Part shown: one piece after another, positions 16,438 through 56,763 of the stretch
Layout: each line of letters opens with the position of its first letter
How positions within the stretch are numbered: the first letter of the stretch is position 1
NCBI RefSeq assembly: GCF_044324785.1
Contig: NZ_CP172127.1
Length of the DNA stretch: 64,000 nt
Reading direction: 5' to 3' (one strand)
From: Escherichia coli
GTDB taxonomy: Bacteria; Pseudomonadota; Gammaproteobacteria; Enterobacterales; Enterobacteriaceae
The notes under the pieces: generated by a model
Seen by the model: only the letters and a program-made list of their open reading frames with translations
Told to the model about the DNA's origin: nothing
Database searches by the model: none
Made by a program: the position numbers and the translations under genes

Positions 16438-16471
16438 ATGCCGGATAAGGCGTTCACGCCGCATCCGGCAT
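16438..16471. repeat. REP element between the convergent yphB and yphA
   Basis: Palindrome atgccggataaggcgttcacgccgcatccggcat. Confidence 0.5.
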
Positions 16472-52508: not shown

Positions 52509-52529
52509 TCGTCTCTGTCGTTCACTTTG

Positions 52530-52566
52530 AAAACGGCTCCTGGACAGGGGCCGTTTTCCTGTTTTT
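52530..52566 (+). terminator. Intrinsic terminator downstream of bamB
   Basis: Hairpin aaacggc...gccgttt followed by cctgttttt. Confidence 0.55.
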
Positions 52567-52625: not shown

Positions 52626-54098
52626 ATGGTACCTGTGGTCGCGCTTGTCGGGCGCCCTAACGTAGGAAAATCCACGTTATTTAACCGTCTAACTCGCACC
52701 CGAGATGCGCTGGTTGCGGATTTCCCGGGTCTGACTCGTGACCGTAAGTACGGTCGTGCAGAAATTGAAGGCCGTGAGTTTATCTGCATTGATACCGGCG
52801 GGATTGATGGTACAGAAGACGGTGTAGAAACCCGTATGGCGGAACAGTCGCTGCTGGCGATTGAAGAAGCGGACGTCGTACTGTTTATGGTGGATGCGCG
52901 CGCGGGCCTGATGCCGGCGGATGAAGCGATTGCCAAACATCTGCGCTCCCGTGAAAAACCGACCTTCCTGGTGGCAAACAAAACTGACGGTCTGGATCCC
53001 GATCAGGCAGTGGTTGATTTCTACTCGCTTGGTTTAGGGGAAATCTACCCGATCGCCGCGTCTCACGGTCGTGGCGTATTAAGTCTGCTGGAGCATGTGC
53101 TGCTGCCGTGGATGGAAGATCTCGCACCGCAAGAGGAAGTCGACGAAGACGCTGAATACTGGGCGCAATTTGAAGCAGAAGAAAACGGCGAAGAAGAAGA
53201 GGAAGATGACTTCGACCCGCAAAGTCTGCCAATCAAACTGGCGATTGTGGGTCGTCCGAACGTAGGTAAGTCTACACTCACGAACCGTATTCTTGGTGAA
53301 GAGCGCGTTGTTGTTTACGACATGCCTGGCACGACGCGTGACAGCATCTACATTCCAATGGAACGCGACGGACGTGAGTATGTACTCATTGACACCGCTG
53401 GCGTACGTAAACGCGGCAAAATCACCGATGCTGTAGAGAAGTTCTCGGTAATCAAAACGTTGCAGGCCATTGAAGATGCCAACGTGGTGATGTTGGTGAT
53501 TGATGCGCGCGAAGGTATTTCCGATCAGGATCTCTCCCTGCTGGGCTTTATTCTCAATAGTGGGCGCTCACTTGTCATTGTGGTGAATAAGTGGGATGGC
53601 CTGAGCCAGGAAGTGAAAGAGCAGGTGAAAGAAACGCTGGACTTCCGTCTGGGCTTTATCGATTTTGCTCGTGTGCACTTTATCTCTGCCTTGCACGGCA
53701 GTGGTGTTGGTAATCTGTTTGAATCAGTACGTGAAGCGTATGACAGCTCCACCCGTCGTGTGGGGACCTCTATGCTGACGCGCATCATGACGATGGCTGT
53801 TGAAGATCACCAGCCGCCGCTGGTACGTGGTCGTCGTGTGAAGCTGAAATATGCCCACGCTGGTGGTTATAACCCGCCGATTGTGGTGATTCACGGTAAC
53901 CAGGTGAAAGACCTGCCGGATTCCTACAAGCGTTACTTGATGAACTACTTCCGCAAATCGCTGGACGTAATGGGATCGCCGATTCGTATTCAGTTCAAAG
54001 AAGGGGAAAACCCGTATGCGAACAAGCGTAACACCCTGACGCCAACCCAGATGCGTAAACGTAAGCGCCTGATGAAGCATATCAAGAAAAGTAAGTAA
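52626..54098 (+). CDS. der: Ribosome-associated GTPase Der (EngA), tandem GTPase domains plus KH-like domain
   Basis: 490 aa from [16 protein letters not shown]; second P-loop GRPNVGKST; acidic linker between the GTPase domains. Confidence 0.9.
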
Positions 54099-54160
54099 TC
54101 ACTTATCTGGTTTCCCTTTCCACACGGAGAGGGAAACCGAATAACACGCGAGGAGTATTT

Positions 54161-54376
54161 ATGGCACTCAACTGTCCAACCTGCAAAATCCCTCTCGAAC
54201 GCAATGGCGAGACTGCCCACTGTGCAACTTGCGACAAAGACTTTACCGTCCAGGCACTTTGCCCTGAGTGTCATCAGCCGTTACAAGTGTTAAAAGCTTG
54301 TGGTGCTGTGGATTATTTCTGCCAACATGGGCACGGTTTAATATCTAAAAAACGCGTTGAATTTGTTATTGCTTAA
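54161..54376 (+). CDS. yfgJ: Small zinc-ribbon protein YfgJ
   Basis: 71 aa with four CxxC pairs (CPTC, CATC, CPEC, CQHG region). Confidence 0.8.
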   Translation: MALNCPTCKIPLERNGETAHCATCDKDFTVQALCPECHQPLQVLKACGAVDYFCQHGHGLISKKRVEFVIA

Positions 54377-54585
54377 TATCATGTGAATATATTGTTTTAT
54401 CATTTATATTTAATATGTGAATGGTAAAACAATCTGTTATTAGTGGAATAACTAATGTAATTGAGTGAAATCACTAATTTAAATAATTAAGAATATATTT
54501 ATTCTTTATGACATGCCTTTCTGAATAATCAGGGATACAATATTAAAGCTTATTTTTGACTGTATCATTGTCACAGGGAAAGTGC

Positions 54586-56763
54586 ATGCTGCGATGGAAA
54601 CGCTGTATTATTCTAACATTTATCTCTGGTGCTGCTTTCGCGGCACCAGAGATAAATGTTAAGCAAAACGAATCGTTACCTGATTTAGGTAGCCAGGCAG
54701 CACAGCAGGATGAACAAACCAACAAGGGTAAATCGCTGAAAGAGCGCGGAGCCGATTACGTCATCAACTCCGCCACGCAAGGGTTTGAAAACTTGACCCC
54801 TGAGGCGCTGGAATCTCAGGCCAAAAGCTATCTGCAAAGTCAAATCACCTCAACCGCACAATCTTATATTGAAGACACACTCTCTCCCTACGGTAAGGTC
54901 CGTTCGAACCTCTCCATTGGCCAGGGCGGCGATCTGGATGGCAGTTCCATCGATTATTTTGTTCCCTGGTACGATAATCAAACCACTGTTTATTTCAGTC
55001 AATTTTCTGCGCAACGAAAAGAAGATCGTACAATCGGGAATATTGGTCTTGGAGTAAGACATAATTTTGATGAATGGTTATTGGGTGGAAATATATTTTA
55101 TGATTATGATTTTACCCGAGGACATCGCCGTTTAGGTTTAGGCGGCGAAGCGTGGACTGATTATTTAAAATTCTCTGGCAACTATTATCATCCGCTTTCT
55201 GACTGGAAAGACTCTGAAGATTTCGACTTTTATGAAGAACGCCCTGCGCGCGGCTGGGATATTCGTGCCGAAGCCTGGTTACCTTCTTATCCGCAACTGG
55301 GGGGCAAAGTTGTCTTCGAGCAATATTACGGCGATGAAGTCGCCCTTTTTGGTACGGATAATTTGGAGAAAGATCCCTACGCGGTAACGCTTGGACTGAA
55401 TTATCAACCGGTGCCATTACTGACCGTTGGGACGGATTATAAAGCAGGGACCGGAGATAACAGCGATGTCAGCATTAATGCCACTCTTAATTATCAGTTC
55501 GGCGTTCCGCTAAAAGATCAATTGGATAGCGATAAAGTGAAAGCGGCTCACTCGTTGATGGGCAGTCGTCATGATTTTGTTGAGCGTAATAACTTTATTG
55601 TTCTGGAATACAAAGAAAAAGATCCGCTTGATGTCACCCTGTGGTTAAAAGCGGATGCCACCAACGAGCACCCTGAGTGCGTCATTAAGGACACTCCCGA
55701 AGCGGCCGTCGGGCTGGAAAAATGTAAATGGACCATTAACGCGCTTATCAACCACCACTACAAAATTGTCGCTGCGTCATGGCAGGCGAAAAACAATGCT
55801 GCCCGCACGCTGGTTATGCCGGTTATCAAAGAGAATACCCTGACAGAGGGTAACAATAACCACTGGAACCTGGTGCTGCCCGCCTGGCAGTACAGCTCTG
55901 ACAAAGCCGAACAAGAAAAACTCAATACCTGGCGAGTACGTCTGGCACTGGAAGATGAAAAGGGCAACCGACAGAACTCTGGCATGGTGGAAATCACCGT
56001 TCAGCAGGACCGTAAAATTGAGTTGATTGTTAATAACATCGCGAACGTGCCGGAAGAGAACAACCACAGCCATGAAGCCAGCGCCCAGGCAGATGGCGTT
56101 GATGGTGTGGTGATGGATCTCGATGTAACCGACAGCTTTGGCGATAACACCGACCGCAACGGCGATGCGCTGCCGGAAGATAACCTCACGCCGCAGCTTT
56201 ACGACGCGCAGGACAAACGAGTGACGTTAACCAACAAGCCTTGCTCGACCGACAACCCCTGCGTTTTTATCGCTAAACAAGATAAAGAAAAGGGCACTGT
56301 CACCCTCTCCAGTACCTTACCCGGCACCTATCGCTGGAAAGCAAAAGCCGCGCCCTACGACGACAGTAACTATGTGGATGTCACTTTCCTCGGGACAGAA
56401 ATTGGTGGGCTAAATGCATTTATCTATCGTGTGGGGGCAGCTAAACCCAGCAACCTGATAGGTAAAGATAAAGAACCGCTGCCGCTCAACAACACTTATC
56501 GATTTGTTTTGTGGCGTGACAGCAATAAAGACGGTGTCTTCCAGCAGGTCGAAAAACTGACTGACGAAGAGATGGCGCAGTACGACTACAAGTGGGAATT
56601 TACCGGCAAGAGCATCAATGGTGAAGTGGGTGCACAGGCGAACACATCCAATGAGGACATTGTGATTCCGGCCACTAACCGCGAAGCGGCGCAAACCTAT
56701 GGCGCACAAGCGGGAGATGGCTTGCAGGGATACGGTTTACGCGTGCTGTATACCAAAAAATAA
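54586..56763 (+). CDS. sinH: Intimin/invasin-family inverse autotransporter (SinH-like)
   Basis: Signal peptide MLRWKRCIILTFISGAAFA; region ERPARGWDIRAEAWLPSYPQLGGKVVFEQYYGD...GSRHDFVERNNFIVLEYKEK resembles the intimin/invasin beta-barrel as I remember it; C-terminal passenger; lies next to sinI and ratA. Confidence 0.7.
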   Translation: MLRWKRCIILTFISGAAFAAPEINVKQNESLPDLGSQAAQQDEQTNKGKSLKERGADYVINSATQGFENLTPEALESQAKSYLQSQITSTAQSYIEDTLSPYGKVRSNLSIGQGGDLDGSSIDYFVPWYDNQTTVYFSQFSAQRKEDRTIGNIGLGVRHNFDEWLLGGNIFYDYDFTRGHRRLGLGGEAWTDYLKFSGNYYHPLSDWKDSEDFDFYEERPARGWDIRAEAWLPSYPQLGGKVVFEQYYGDEVALFGTDNLEKDPYAVTLGLNYQPVPLLTVGTDYKAGTGDNSDVSINATLNYQFGVPLKDQLDSDKVKAAHSLMGSRHDFVERNNFIVLEYKEKDPLDVTLWLKADATNEHPECVIKDTPEAAVGLEKCKWTINALINHHYKIVAASWQAKNNAARTLVMPVIKENTLTEGNNNHWNLVLPAWQYSSDKAEQEKLNTWRVRLALEDEKGNRQNSGMVEITVQQDRKIELIVNNIANVPEENNHSHEASAQADGVDGVVMDLDVTDSFGDNTDRNGDALPEDNLTPQLYDAQDKRVTLTNKPCSTDNPCVFIAKQDKEKGTVTLSSTLPGTYRWKAKAAPYDDSNYVDVTFLGTEIGGLNAFIYRVGAAKPSNLIGKDKEPLPLNNTYRFVLWRDSNKDGVFQQVEKLTDEEMAQYDYKWEFTGKSINGEVGAQANTSNEDIVIPATNREAAQTYGAQAGDGLQGYGLRVLYTKK

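What the first reader, a model, noticed from the sequence alone, without database searches (positions are those of the whole stretch)
54109..54138. Strong 12-bp stem-loop between der and yfgJ without a U-tract
ggtttccctttc cacacg gagagggaaacc forms a 12-bp stem (one G-U pair) 11 bp after the der stop and 23 bp before the yfgJ start, with no following T-run. It is unlikely to be an intrinsic terminator. It may be a processing or stabilising element, or a partial attenuator that sets yfgJ expression relative to der.
Basis: seen in the sequence. Interest (0 to 1): 0.25.

Follow-up and report, generated by a model that had tools for sequence, protein, structure and literature searches.

The report
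U-tract-less hairpin after der gene
A real, very stable RNA hairpin sits between the E. coli genes der and yfgJ where related bacteria have an ordinary transcription terminator; it has lost the terminator's U-run, so it most likely lets transcription continue into yfgJ and may protect the der message from decay, which would make it an ordinary, known kind of element.

Summary
Positions 54109-54138 fold into a 13-bp stem with an ACAC loop (-21.9 kcal/mol, z = -5.8). It is the second most stable 34-nt fold on the + strand of the 64-kb window, and no T-run follows it.

The window is E. coli. About 32% of complete E. coli genomes carry this der-yfgJ allele. About 68% (K-12, O157) carry an allele that diverges right after the der stop yet has a different hairpin at the same place, with the same CCCTYT/AGAGGG core and compensatory changes elsewhere in the stem. 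Citrobacter, Superficieibacter and Siccibacter have similar U-less hairpins.

Every wobble pair is G·U on the der/yfgJ sense strand, so selection acts on the sense RNA. In most other Enterobacterales, Vibrio and Pasteurellaceae the same position holds a canonical intrinsic terminator; one Salmonella locus has REP-like palindromes. The hairpin goes with the der 3' end, not with yfgJ.

Published K-12 data show der-yfgJ co-transcripts and der-ending transcripts, Rho-dependent termination after yfgJ, and no curated Term-seq 3' end at the hairpin.

Best reading: a former der terminator that lost its U-tract and now acts as a pass-through, exonuclease-blocking stem-loop. It is a new member of a known kind and of low interest.

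The parts
54109..54121 (+). 5' arm of the hairpin (GGTTTCCCTTTCC), pyrimidine-rich
   Evidence: core CCCTYT kept in all Escherichia, Citrobacter, Superficieibacter and Siccibacter versions
54122..54125 (+). loop ACAC
   Evidence: the loop varies freely among alleles (ACAC, ATAT, TTTGTG, TGAATG)
54126..54138 (+). 3' arm of the hairpin (GGAGAGGGAAACC), purine-rich
   Evidence: core AGAGGG kept
52626..54098 (+). der (ribosome biogenesis GTPase Der); its stop codon lies 10 nt before the hairpin
   Evidence: annotation of the 100%-identical strain N3, ORF list
54150..54155 (+). yfgJ Shine-Dalgarno sequence GAGGAG, 11 nt after the hairpin
   Evidence: read directly from the sequence
54161..54376 (+). 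yfgJ (71-aa double zinc-ribbon protein, PF07191), co-transcribed with der in K-12
52529..52558 (+). Context: canonical bamB-der intrinsic terminator, a contrast with a U-tract
   Evidence: corresponds to the Term-seq 3' end 2637422(-) in MG1655
54377..54585 (+). Context: AT-rich spacer after yfgJ, before sinH. No terminator-like hairpin, so der-yfgJ transcripts have no protective 3' structure other than the one at 54109-54138

Best explanation
The hairpin is the 3'-end stem-loop of the der message. It descends from, or replaces, the canonical Rho-independent terminator that follows der in most related bacteria, and it has lost the U-tract.

Without the U-tract, RNA polymerase is not released. 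Transcription runs on into yfgJ, which starts 22 nt later, and ends further downstream. In K-12 that end is Rho-dependent, about 90 nt past yfgJ. In this window it probably falls in the AT-rich spacer before sinH.

The stem-loop then acts as a barrier to 3'-to-5' exonucleases (PNPase, RNase II). Decay that enters from the unprotected 3' end removes the yfgJ segment but stops at the hairpin, leaving a der-ending mRNA.

Shown: the structure, its selection as sense-strand RNA, its position-homology to der terminators, read-through, and downstream Rho termination in K-12.

Inferred: the exonuclease-barrier function, and its consequence that der and yfgJ mRNA stability are uncoupled.
For: 1. Stable hairpin without a T-run.

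2. The stem is conserved across alleles that are only 30-50% identical around it. On 10 distinct versions, 97.5% of cells are paired, against 46-71% for slid controls, and 4 pairs change on both sides.

3. Strand asymmetry. Every non-Watson-Crick stem pair but one is G.U on the der/yfgJ sense strand and none is A.C. The sense fold is at least as stable as the antisense fold in 15 of 15 variants, and strictly more stable in 12.

4. By a strict rule, 59 of 89 loci have a canonical GC-hairpin plus T-run right after der, and several more qualify by eye. Among the 21 loci where yfgJ starts within 150 nt of der, 8 have a canonical terminator, 11 a U-less hairpin and 2 nothing.

5. In 31 loci where yfgJ is not next to der, the 70 nt before yfgJ carry no strong hairpin (median -8.5 kcal/mol, one exception). 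The element therefore belongs to der.

6. K-12 SMRT-Cappable-seq lists operons der|yfgJ and bamB|der|yfgJ (read-through) and bamB|der (der-ending). yfgJ has only one transcriptional context.

7. In K-12 a Rho-termination region lies at 2635510(-), 89 nt past the yfgJ stop.

8. Dar and Sorek 2018 describe exactly this class. Their stem-loops are as stable as those of terminators, lack U-rich tails, protect Rho-dependent transcripts from PNPase and RNase II, and are proposed to interconvert with intrinsic terminators by changing uridine content.
Against: - Adams et al. 2021 list no curated Term-seq 3' end anywhere in 2635000-2635999 on either strand, in three conditions. No dominant steady-state 3' end was therefore seen at the K-12 hairpin (2635831-2635862).
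- The der-ending SMRT-Cappable operons come without end coordinates in the held files.
- Rough read counts from the same study (81 in the der 5' region, 110 in the der 3' end plus yfgJ) show no excess of der over yfgJ.
- About 58% of K-12-type genomes carry 1-nt-deletion versions with a bulge, so selection tolerates some weakening.
- There are no experimental data at all for the window-type allele.
Confidence: 0.45

Rival explanations
1. Leaky terminator or attenuator. The hairpin still releases or pauses a fraction of polymerases despite the missing U-tract, perhaps with NusA or NusG help, and so sets yfgJ transcription below that of der.
For: It sits exactly where relatives have a real der terminator. 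K-12 has der-ending transcripts (bamB|der) as well as read-through ones. Superficieibacter and Pseudocitrobacter L007 versions keep short T-rich tails, which look like intermediates.
Against: The tail GAATAACAC has one T in its first 7-8 bases. By established knowledge, E. coli RNA polymerase needs the U-tract for hairpin-driven release. No Term-seq 3' end is found at the K-12 homologue. Rough coverage does not drop from der to yfgJ.
Confidence: 0.2
2. Leader element of yfgJ. The hairpin serves the downstream gene, as a 5' stabiliser after processing, as an insulator that keeps the yfgJ ribosome-binding site open, or as a block to re-initiation by ribosomes leaving der.
For: It ends 11 nt (window) or 4 nt (K-12) before the yfgJ Shine-Dalgarno sequence. 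yfgJ expression differs among E. coli isolates in association with upstream non-coding k-mers, and both alleles were cloned in reporters. The 5' arm is anti-SD-like, and freeing it lowers predicted RBS accessibility.
Against: In 30 of 31 loci where yfgJ is not next to der, no strong hairpin precedes it. Deleting the hairpin in silico changes RBS accessibility inconsistently: 0.48 to 0.44 in the window allele, 0.32 to 0.50 in K-12. No yfgJ-only transcript appears in SMRT-Cappable-seq. No promoter-like site is found nearby.
Confidence: 0.12
3. Decaying relic. A former terminator stem that persists by descent and has no present function.
For: Bulged and mismatched versions are common in E. coli. 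No mapped RNA end or phenotype is attached to it.
Against: The stem survives although the flanks have diverged to 30-50% identity. Four pairs have compensatory changes, and all seven wobble changes fall on the sense-compatible side, which would happen by chance about 1 time in 128.
Confidence: 0.12
4. Antisense or DNA-level role. Either the palindrome caps the convergent xseA transcript, which in K-12 reads through yfgJ antisense, or it acts as a protein-binding or recombination site at the edge of the variable region.
For: In K-12 a strong Rho-termination region for the xseA strand lies at 2635920(+), about 58 nt past the hairpin. Counts fall from 259 to 26 untreated, against 472 to 533 with bicyclomycin. 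Homology between the E. coli alleles breaks at the der stop, just before the hairpin.
Against: In this window xseA is not adjacent, because the sinH island intervenes. G.U-only imperfections weaken the antisense fold (for example -13.8 against -21.9 in S88) and argue against a strand-neutral DNA site. No 3' end is listed on that strand either.
Confidence: 0.06

Closest known systems
[quoted passage not shown]
   Same: The stem and energy are like those of an intrinsic terminator. There is no U-rich tail and no upstream A-tract. Rho-dependent termination lies downstream (K-12). The evolutionary switch they proposed, between intrinsic terminator and U-less stem-loop by loss of uridines, is what the comparative series here shows.
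   Different: This one is intercistronic, with a translated gene 22 nt downstream, rather than at the end of a transcription unit. No steady-state 3' end has been mapped at it.
The canonical Rho-independent terminator of der in other Enterobacterales, Vibrionaceae and Pasteurellaceae
   Same: Same position, within about 10-60 nt after the der stop, and same strand. Stem stability is comparable.
   Different: Those have a GC-rich stem plus a T-run of 5-9. The E. coli stem has a pyrimidine 5' arm, a purine 3' arm and no T-run.
REP/BIME intercistronic mRNA stabilisers (for example malE-malF; from established knowledge) and the REP-like pair in the Salmonella der-yfgJ spacer
   Same: A stable palindrome between two co-oriented genes that can block 3' exonucleases. 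Salmonella L085 carries REP-like palindromes in the same spacer.
   Different: It does not match the REP consensus. It is single-copy in E. coli genomes (median 1 place per genome) and occurs once in the window.
Weak or U-poor intrinsic terminators inside operons (leaky terminators)
   Same: A hairpin between genes of one operon, with both read-through and upstream-ending transcripts seen.
   Different: Even weak E. coli terminators keep several U's. This tail has almost none, and no precise 3' end is recorded.

Membership tests
Canonical intrinsic (Rho-independent) terminator | Stable GC-containing stem-loop | tested here: met
   13 bp, -21.9 kcal/mol
Canonical intrinsic (Rho-independent) terminator | U-rich tract of about 7-8 nt immediately after the stem | tested here: not met
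   The tail is GAATAACAC and the consensus scan does not flag it. The same holds in the K-12, O145, albertii-type, Citrobacter and Siccibacter versions.
Canonical intrinsic (Rho-independent) terminator | Precise in vivo RNA 3' end at the tail | tested here: not met
   For the K-12 homologue only: there is no entry in 2635000-2635999 in the curated Term-seq tables of Adams 2021. The window allele was not testable.
U-less protective stem-loop of Rho-dependent transcripts (Dar and Sorek class) | Terminator-like stem-loop lacking a U-rich tail | tested here: met
U-less protective stem-loop of Rho-dependent transcripts (Dar and Sorek class) | Rho-dependent termination downstream of the stem-loop | tested here: met
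   In K-12, a Rho region at 2635510(-), 89 nt past yfgJ. For the window allele this is inferred from the lack of any terminator after yfgJ.
U-less protective stem-loop of Rho-dependent transcripts (Dar and Sorek class) | Dominant steady-state 3' end immediately after the stem | tested here: inconclusive
   Absent from the Adams 2021 curated list. der-ending operons exist in SMRT-Cappable-seq, but their end coordinates are not in the held files. The Dar and Sorek tables are not held.
U-less protective stem-loop of Rho-dependent transcripts (Dar and Sorek class) | Longer 3' tails appear in pnp or rnb mutants | not testable with these tools
   Needs RNA-seq or 3' mapping in exonuclease mutants.
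REP/BIME elements | REP consensus sequence and many copies per genome | tested here: not met
   Single place per genome. One occurrence in the window, while true REPs at 16439, 27669, 27721 and 6025 look different.
Any curated RNA family (Rfam 15) | Match to a covariance model | tested here: not met
   No hit at the site even at E <= 10.
RNase III processing site | About two helical turns (about 20 bp) of duplex | tested here: not met
   13 bp in most alleles. Only the MSB1 variant extends to 19 bp. The length requirement is from established knowledge.
Intercistronic stabiliser hairpin of a polycistronic mRNA | Lies between two cistrons of one transcript | tested here: met
   der|yfgJ and bamB|der|yfgJ full-length reads in K-12.
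Intercistronic stabiliser hairpin of a polycistronic mRNA | Upstream segment more stable or abundant than the downstream segment | tested here: inconclusive
   Only rough window counts are available (81 against 110 reads), and they show no excess of der. No half-life data.

The most novel reading that the evidence does not exclude
The invariant CCCUYU/AGAGGG core, kept across genera while the rest of the spacer is unalignable, might not be simple descent. It could be a sequence-specific operator bound by a protein of the same pathway. One candidate is YfgJ, a double zinc-ribbon protein linked to der across many Gammaproteobacteria. Others are Der itself or a ribosome component. Binding would give feedback control of the der-yfgJ message, in the manner of ribosomal-protein operon autoregulation.
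Probability: 0.04. Interest if true: 0.6.

Novelty: new member of a known kind. Interest (0 to 1): 0.2.

Why it matters
If the reading is right, this locus is a clean natural series of how a terminator turns into a pass-through stability element. The same position after an essential gene holds a canonical terminator, a REP pair, or a U-less stem-loop in different lineages. Two deeply diverged alleles within E. coli both keep the stem.

That illustrates the terminator-to-protective-hairpin switch proposed from Term-seq data. It also offers a simple system to test whether such hairpins uncouple the stability of neighbouring cistrons.

It does not change any general view. It is a tidy example, not a surprise.

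Tried and rejected
- **Rfam.** A scan at E <= 10 found nothing at the site.
- **Dispersed repeat family.** The arm motif is unique in the window, and the K-12 version is single-copy per genome.
- **Promoter for yfgJ in the der 3' end or spacer.** No consensus-like site on the + strand, and no yfgJ-only transcript in SMRT-Cappable-seq. A preprint attributes yfgJ expression differences to predicted promoters but gives no numbers in the text.
- **RBS-insulator idea.** Predicted accessibility of the yfgJ Shine-Dalgarno sequence and AUG changes in opposite directions in the two alleles when the hairpin is deleted.
- **Terminator for the opposite strand.** No T-run on that side either.
- **3'-end tables.**
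  - Dar and Sorek 2018, the 3'-UTR valve paper, the nanopore paper and Conway 2014 have no held supplements.
  - The TERMITe supplements have no entry for yfgJ or der.
  - Ju 2019, Lalanne 2018 and Thomason 2015 are not held.
- **Cross-genus alignment.** MAFFT put three stems out of register, so the pair count used only the 10 in-register versions.
- **O157:H7 TR01 hybrid spacer.** It contains an N, and another O157:H7 genome has the normal K-12-type hairpin, so it was treated as a likely assembly artefact.

Full report
**Observation**

The window is E. coli. Positions 53950-54400 are 100% identical to strain N3. The N3 annotation gives der at 52626-54098, a 71-aa zinc-ribbon gene (yfgJ, PF07191) at 54161-54376, and then sinH, sinI and an adhesin.

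The sequence at 54109-54138 is GGTTTCCCTTTCCACACGGAGAGGGAAACC.
- It folds into 13 base pairs with one G.U pair and an ACAC loop, at -21.9 kcal/mol.
- The structure takes 97% of the ensemble. The z-score is -5.8, and 0 of 200 shuffles fold as well.
- It starts 10 nt after the der stop and ends 22 nt before the yfgJ ATG. The Shine-Dalgarno sequence GAGGAG is at 54150-54155.
- The tail GAATAACAC has almost no T, and the terminator scan does not flag the site. The same scan does flag the bamB-der terminator at 52529-52558.
- In a 34-nt sliding fold of all 64 kb, it is the second most stable structure on the + strand, ahead of REP elements and real terminators.
- The arm motif occurs only here in the window.
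- Rfam has no match even at E <= 10.

**Two E. coli alleles, one hairpin**

Megablast shows that in about two thirds of 5,426 complete E. coli genomes, homology to the window stops exactly at the der stop.
- 1,746 genomes carry the window-type allele, followed by the sinH island.
- 3,668 genomes carry the K-12 type, followed directly by convergent xseA.

Identity between the two falls from about 97% in der to 30-50% from 54096 through two thirds of yfgJ.

The K-12 spacer nevertheless has its own hairpin at the same place: GCCATTCCCTCTA tgaatg TAGAGGGAATGGC. The core TTCCCTYT/AGAGGGAA is shared, while the base and top of the stem differ by paired changes.

Further variants are all structure-preserving or nearly so:

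| Variant | Change | Effect on the stem |
|---|---|---|
| S88 | A to G | A-U becomes G.U |
| MSB1 | G to A | G.U becomes A-U |
| O145:H28 | change at the base; new loop | G.U at the base |
| albertii/Shigella-type | several changes | three G.U pairs |
| L005 | one change | one U.U mismatch |
| K-12-type (O157:H7, ETEC) | 1-nt deletion | a bulge |

On 10 in-register versions, 97.5% of cells pair, against 46-71% when the partner is slid by 1-3 columns. Four pairs change on both sides. These versions represent few independent lineages, so the result is supportive rather than a formal proof.

**Which strand, and RNA or DNA**

Across 15 hairpin versions, which include Citrobacter, Superficieibacter, Siccibacter and Pseudocitrobacter:
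- Every imperfect stem pair except the one U.U is G.U on the der/yfgJ sense strand.
- None is A.C, which would be G.U on the other strand.
- The sense fold is at least as stable as the antisense fold in 15 of 15 versions, and strictly more stable in 12.

By my count from the stems listed (not computed by any tool call), this makes about seven independent wobble events on the sense-compatible side. That would happen by chance roughly 1 time in 128.

This points to selection on the sense RNA. It argues against a DNA palindrome and against the antisense transcript.

**Comparative context**

A scan of species-representative genomes with the Der C-terminus gave 80 loci. Eleven more loci came from YfgJ homologues, seven of which have der directly upstream and entered the der-downstream count.
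- Right after der, 59 of 89 loci have a canonical GC hairpin plus T-run by a strict rule. Several more qualify by eye, with longer loops.
- yfgJ lies downstream on the same strand in many of them, from 3 nt to 2.8 kb away.
- Among the 21 loci where yfgJ starts within 150 nt of der, 8 keep a canonical terminator (for example Cronobacter, Klebsiella aerogenes, Tatumella, Aeromonas).
- 11 of the 21 have a U-less hairpin: five Escherichia alleles, C. sedlakii, C. amalonaticus, Superficieibacter, Siccibacter, Pseudocitrobacter L008 and Acerihabitans.
- 2 of the 21 have none.
- The Escherichia, Citrobacter, Superficieibacter and Siccibacter hairpins share a CCCTCTC/GAGAGGG theme.
- One Salmonella locus has a 160-nt spacer with two REP-like palindromes.
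- In 31 loci where yfgJ is not next to der, the 70 nt before yfgJ have no strong hairpin. The median best 34-nt fold is -8.5 kcal/mol, with one exception.

The element therefore travels with the der 3' end, not with yfgJ.

**Experimental data for the K-12 homologue**

In MG1655, der is at 2635884-2637356(-), yfgJ at 2635599-2635814(-), and the hairpin at 2635831-2635862.

- **SMRT-Cappable-seq** (Yan 2018, PMC6131387).
  - It lists operons der|yfgJ from two start sites inside bamB, bamB|der|yfgJ, and bamB|der.
  - yfgJ has a single transcriptional context and der has two in M9.
  - So polymerase reads through the hairpin, and some transcripts end after der. End coordinates are not in the held files.
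- **Term-seq** (Adams 2021, PMC7815308).
  - The curated tables have no 3' end anywhere in 2635000-2635999 on either strand, in three conditions.
  - They do list the bamB terminator end at 2637422(-).
- **Rho termination**, from the same paper's bicyclomycin analysis.
  - One Rho region lies at 2635510(-), 89 nt past the yfgJ stop.
  - Another lies at 2635920(+), where the convergent xseA transcript is stopped about 58 nt after crossing the hairpin.
- **Read counts.** Rough counts from those tables (81 for the der 5' part, 110 for the der 3' end plus yfgJ) show no drop across the hairpin.
- **Expression variation.**
  - A 2025 preprint finds that yfgJ expression differs among isolates in association with upstream non-coding k-mers.
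  - It cloned both alleles in GFP reporters but gives no values in the text.

**Interpretation**

The best fit is the class described by Dar and Sorek 2018. Those stem-loops are as stable as the stems of intrinsic terminators but lack the U-rich tail. They sit upstream of Rho termination zones and protect transcripts from PNPase and RNase II. The authors suggested that terminators switch type in evolution by changing uridine content. The der series shows such a switch.

I propose that the E. coli hairpin is a former der terminator without its U-tract. It lets transcription pass into yfgJ. It then stops exonucleolytic decay that enters from the unprotected 3' end, since no terminator follows yfgJ in the window.

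The barrier function is inferred. The negative Term-seq result and the flat coverage are real evidence against a strong effect. Confidence is about 0.45.

**Rivals**

| Rival | Confidence |
|---|---|
| Leaky terminator or attenuator | 0.2 |
| yfgJ leader element | 0.12 |
| Decaying relic | 0.12 |
| Antisense or DNA-level role | 0.06 |

- The yfgJ leader reading is weakened and by the inconsistent accessibility predictions.
- The relic reading is weakened by the compensatory and sense-only wobble changes.
- The antisense or DNA-level reading is plausible only for the K-12 arrangement and is weakened.

**Novelty and verdict**

None of the nine papers whose main text mentions yfgJ has it in the title or abstract, and the three read for context do not describe the hairpin. 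MG1655 RefSeq annotates nothing in the spacer. The kind of element is known. It is a new member of a known kind, and interest is low (0.2).

Noticed in passing
window 54616-54659 (+): A 20-bp hairpin, ACATTTATCTCTGGTGCTGC tttc GCGGCACCAGAGATAAATGT, at -34.0 kcal/mol. It is the most stable local fold in the whole window. It lies inside the signal-peptide codons of sinH (about codons 11-25). It is kept, with G.U changes or one mismatch, in the O145 and albertii-type alleles, and is absent from Salmonella and Superficieibacter sinH. It might control sinH translation or transcription.
   Followed up: partly
window 54096-54300: Homology between the two E. coli der-yfgJ alleles drops from about 97% to 30-50% exactly at the der stop and recovers to about 80% only in the last third of yfgJ. 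The N-terminal half of YfgJ differs strongly between alleles, and the allele is linked to presence of the sinH island. This looks like an old recombination boundary.
   Followed up: partly
L099 (E. coli O157:H7 TR01) 113-189: The der-yfgJ spacer is a hybrid of the window-type 5' half and the K-12-type 3' half, with an N in the sequence. Another O157:H7 genome (L104) has the normal K-12-type bulged hairpin. Probably an assembly artefact.
   Followed up: partly
L085 (Salmonella enterica) 1041-1200: The der-yfgJ spacer is 160 nt and contains two REP-like palindromes (BIME-like) instead of a simple hairpin.
   Followed up: no
window 52529-52558 (+): The bamB-der intergenic canonical terminator (13-bp stem plus T-run) corresponds to a strong Term-seq 3' end at 2637422(-) in MG1655 in all three conditions. 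der nonetheless lies 66 nt downstream and is also transcribed from start sites inside bamB.
   Followed up: partly
L001 / MG1655 2635599-2635920: In K-12, xseA and yfgJ converge with a 4-nt overlap. The xseA transcript runs antisense through all of yfgJ and the hairpin and is stopped by Rho inside the der 3' end. Counts fall from 259 to 26 untreated and go from 472 to 533 with bicyclomycin. The pair is listed as an excludon candidate.
   Followed up: partly
L014 (Enterobacter cloacae), about 60 nt before yfgJ: The only locus with yfgJ far from der (1.9 kb) that still has a strong U-less hairpin just upstream of the yfgJ Shine-Dalgarno sequence: GCCGGGGCAGGGCATCTGCCCCGGC, -23.2 kcal/mol. The upstream gene was not identified.
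   Followed up: no
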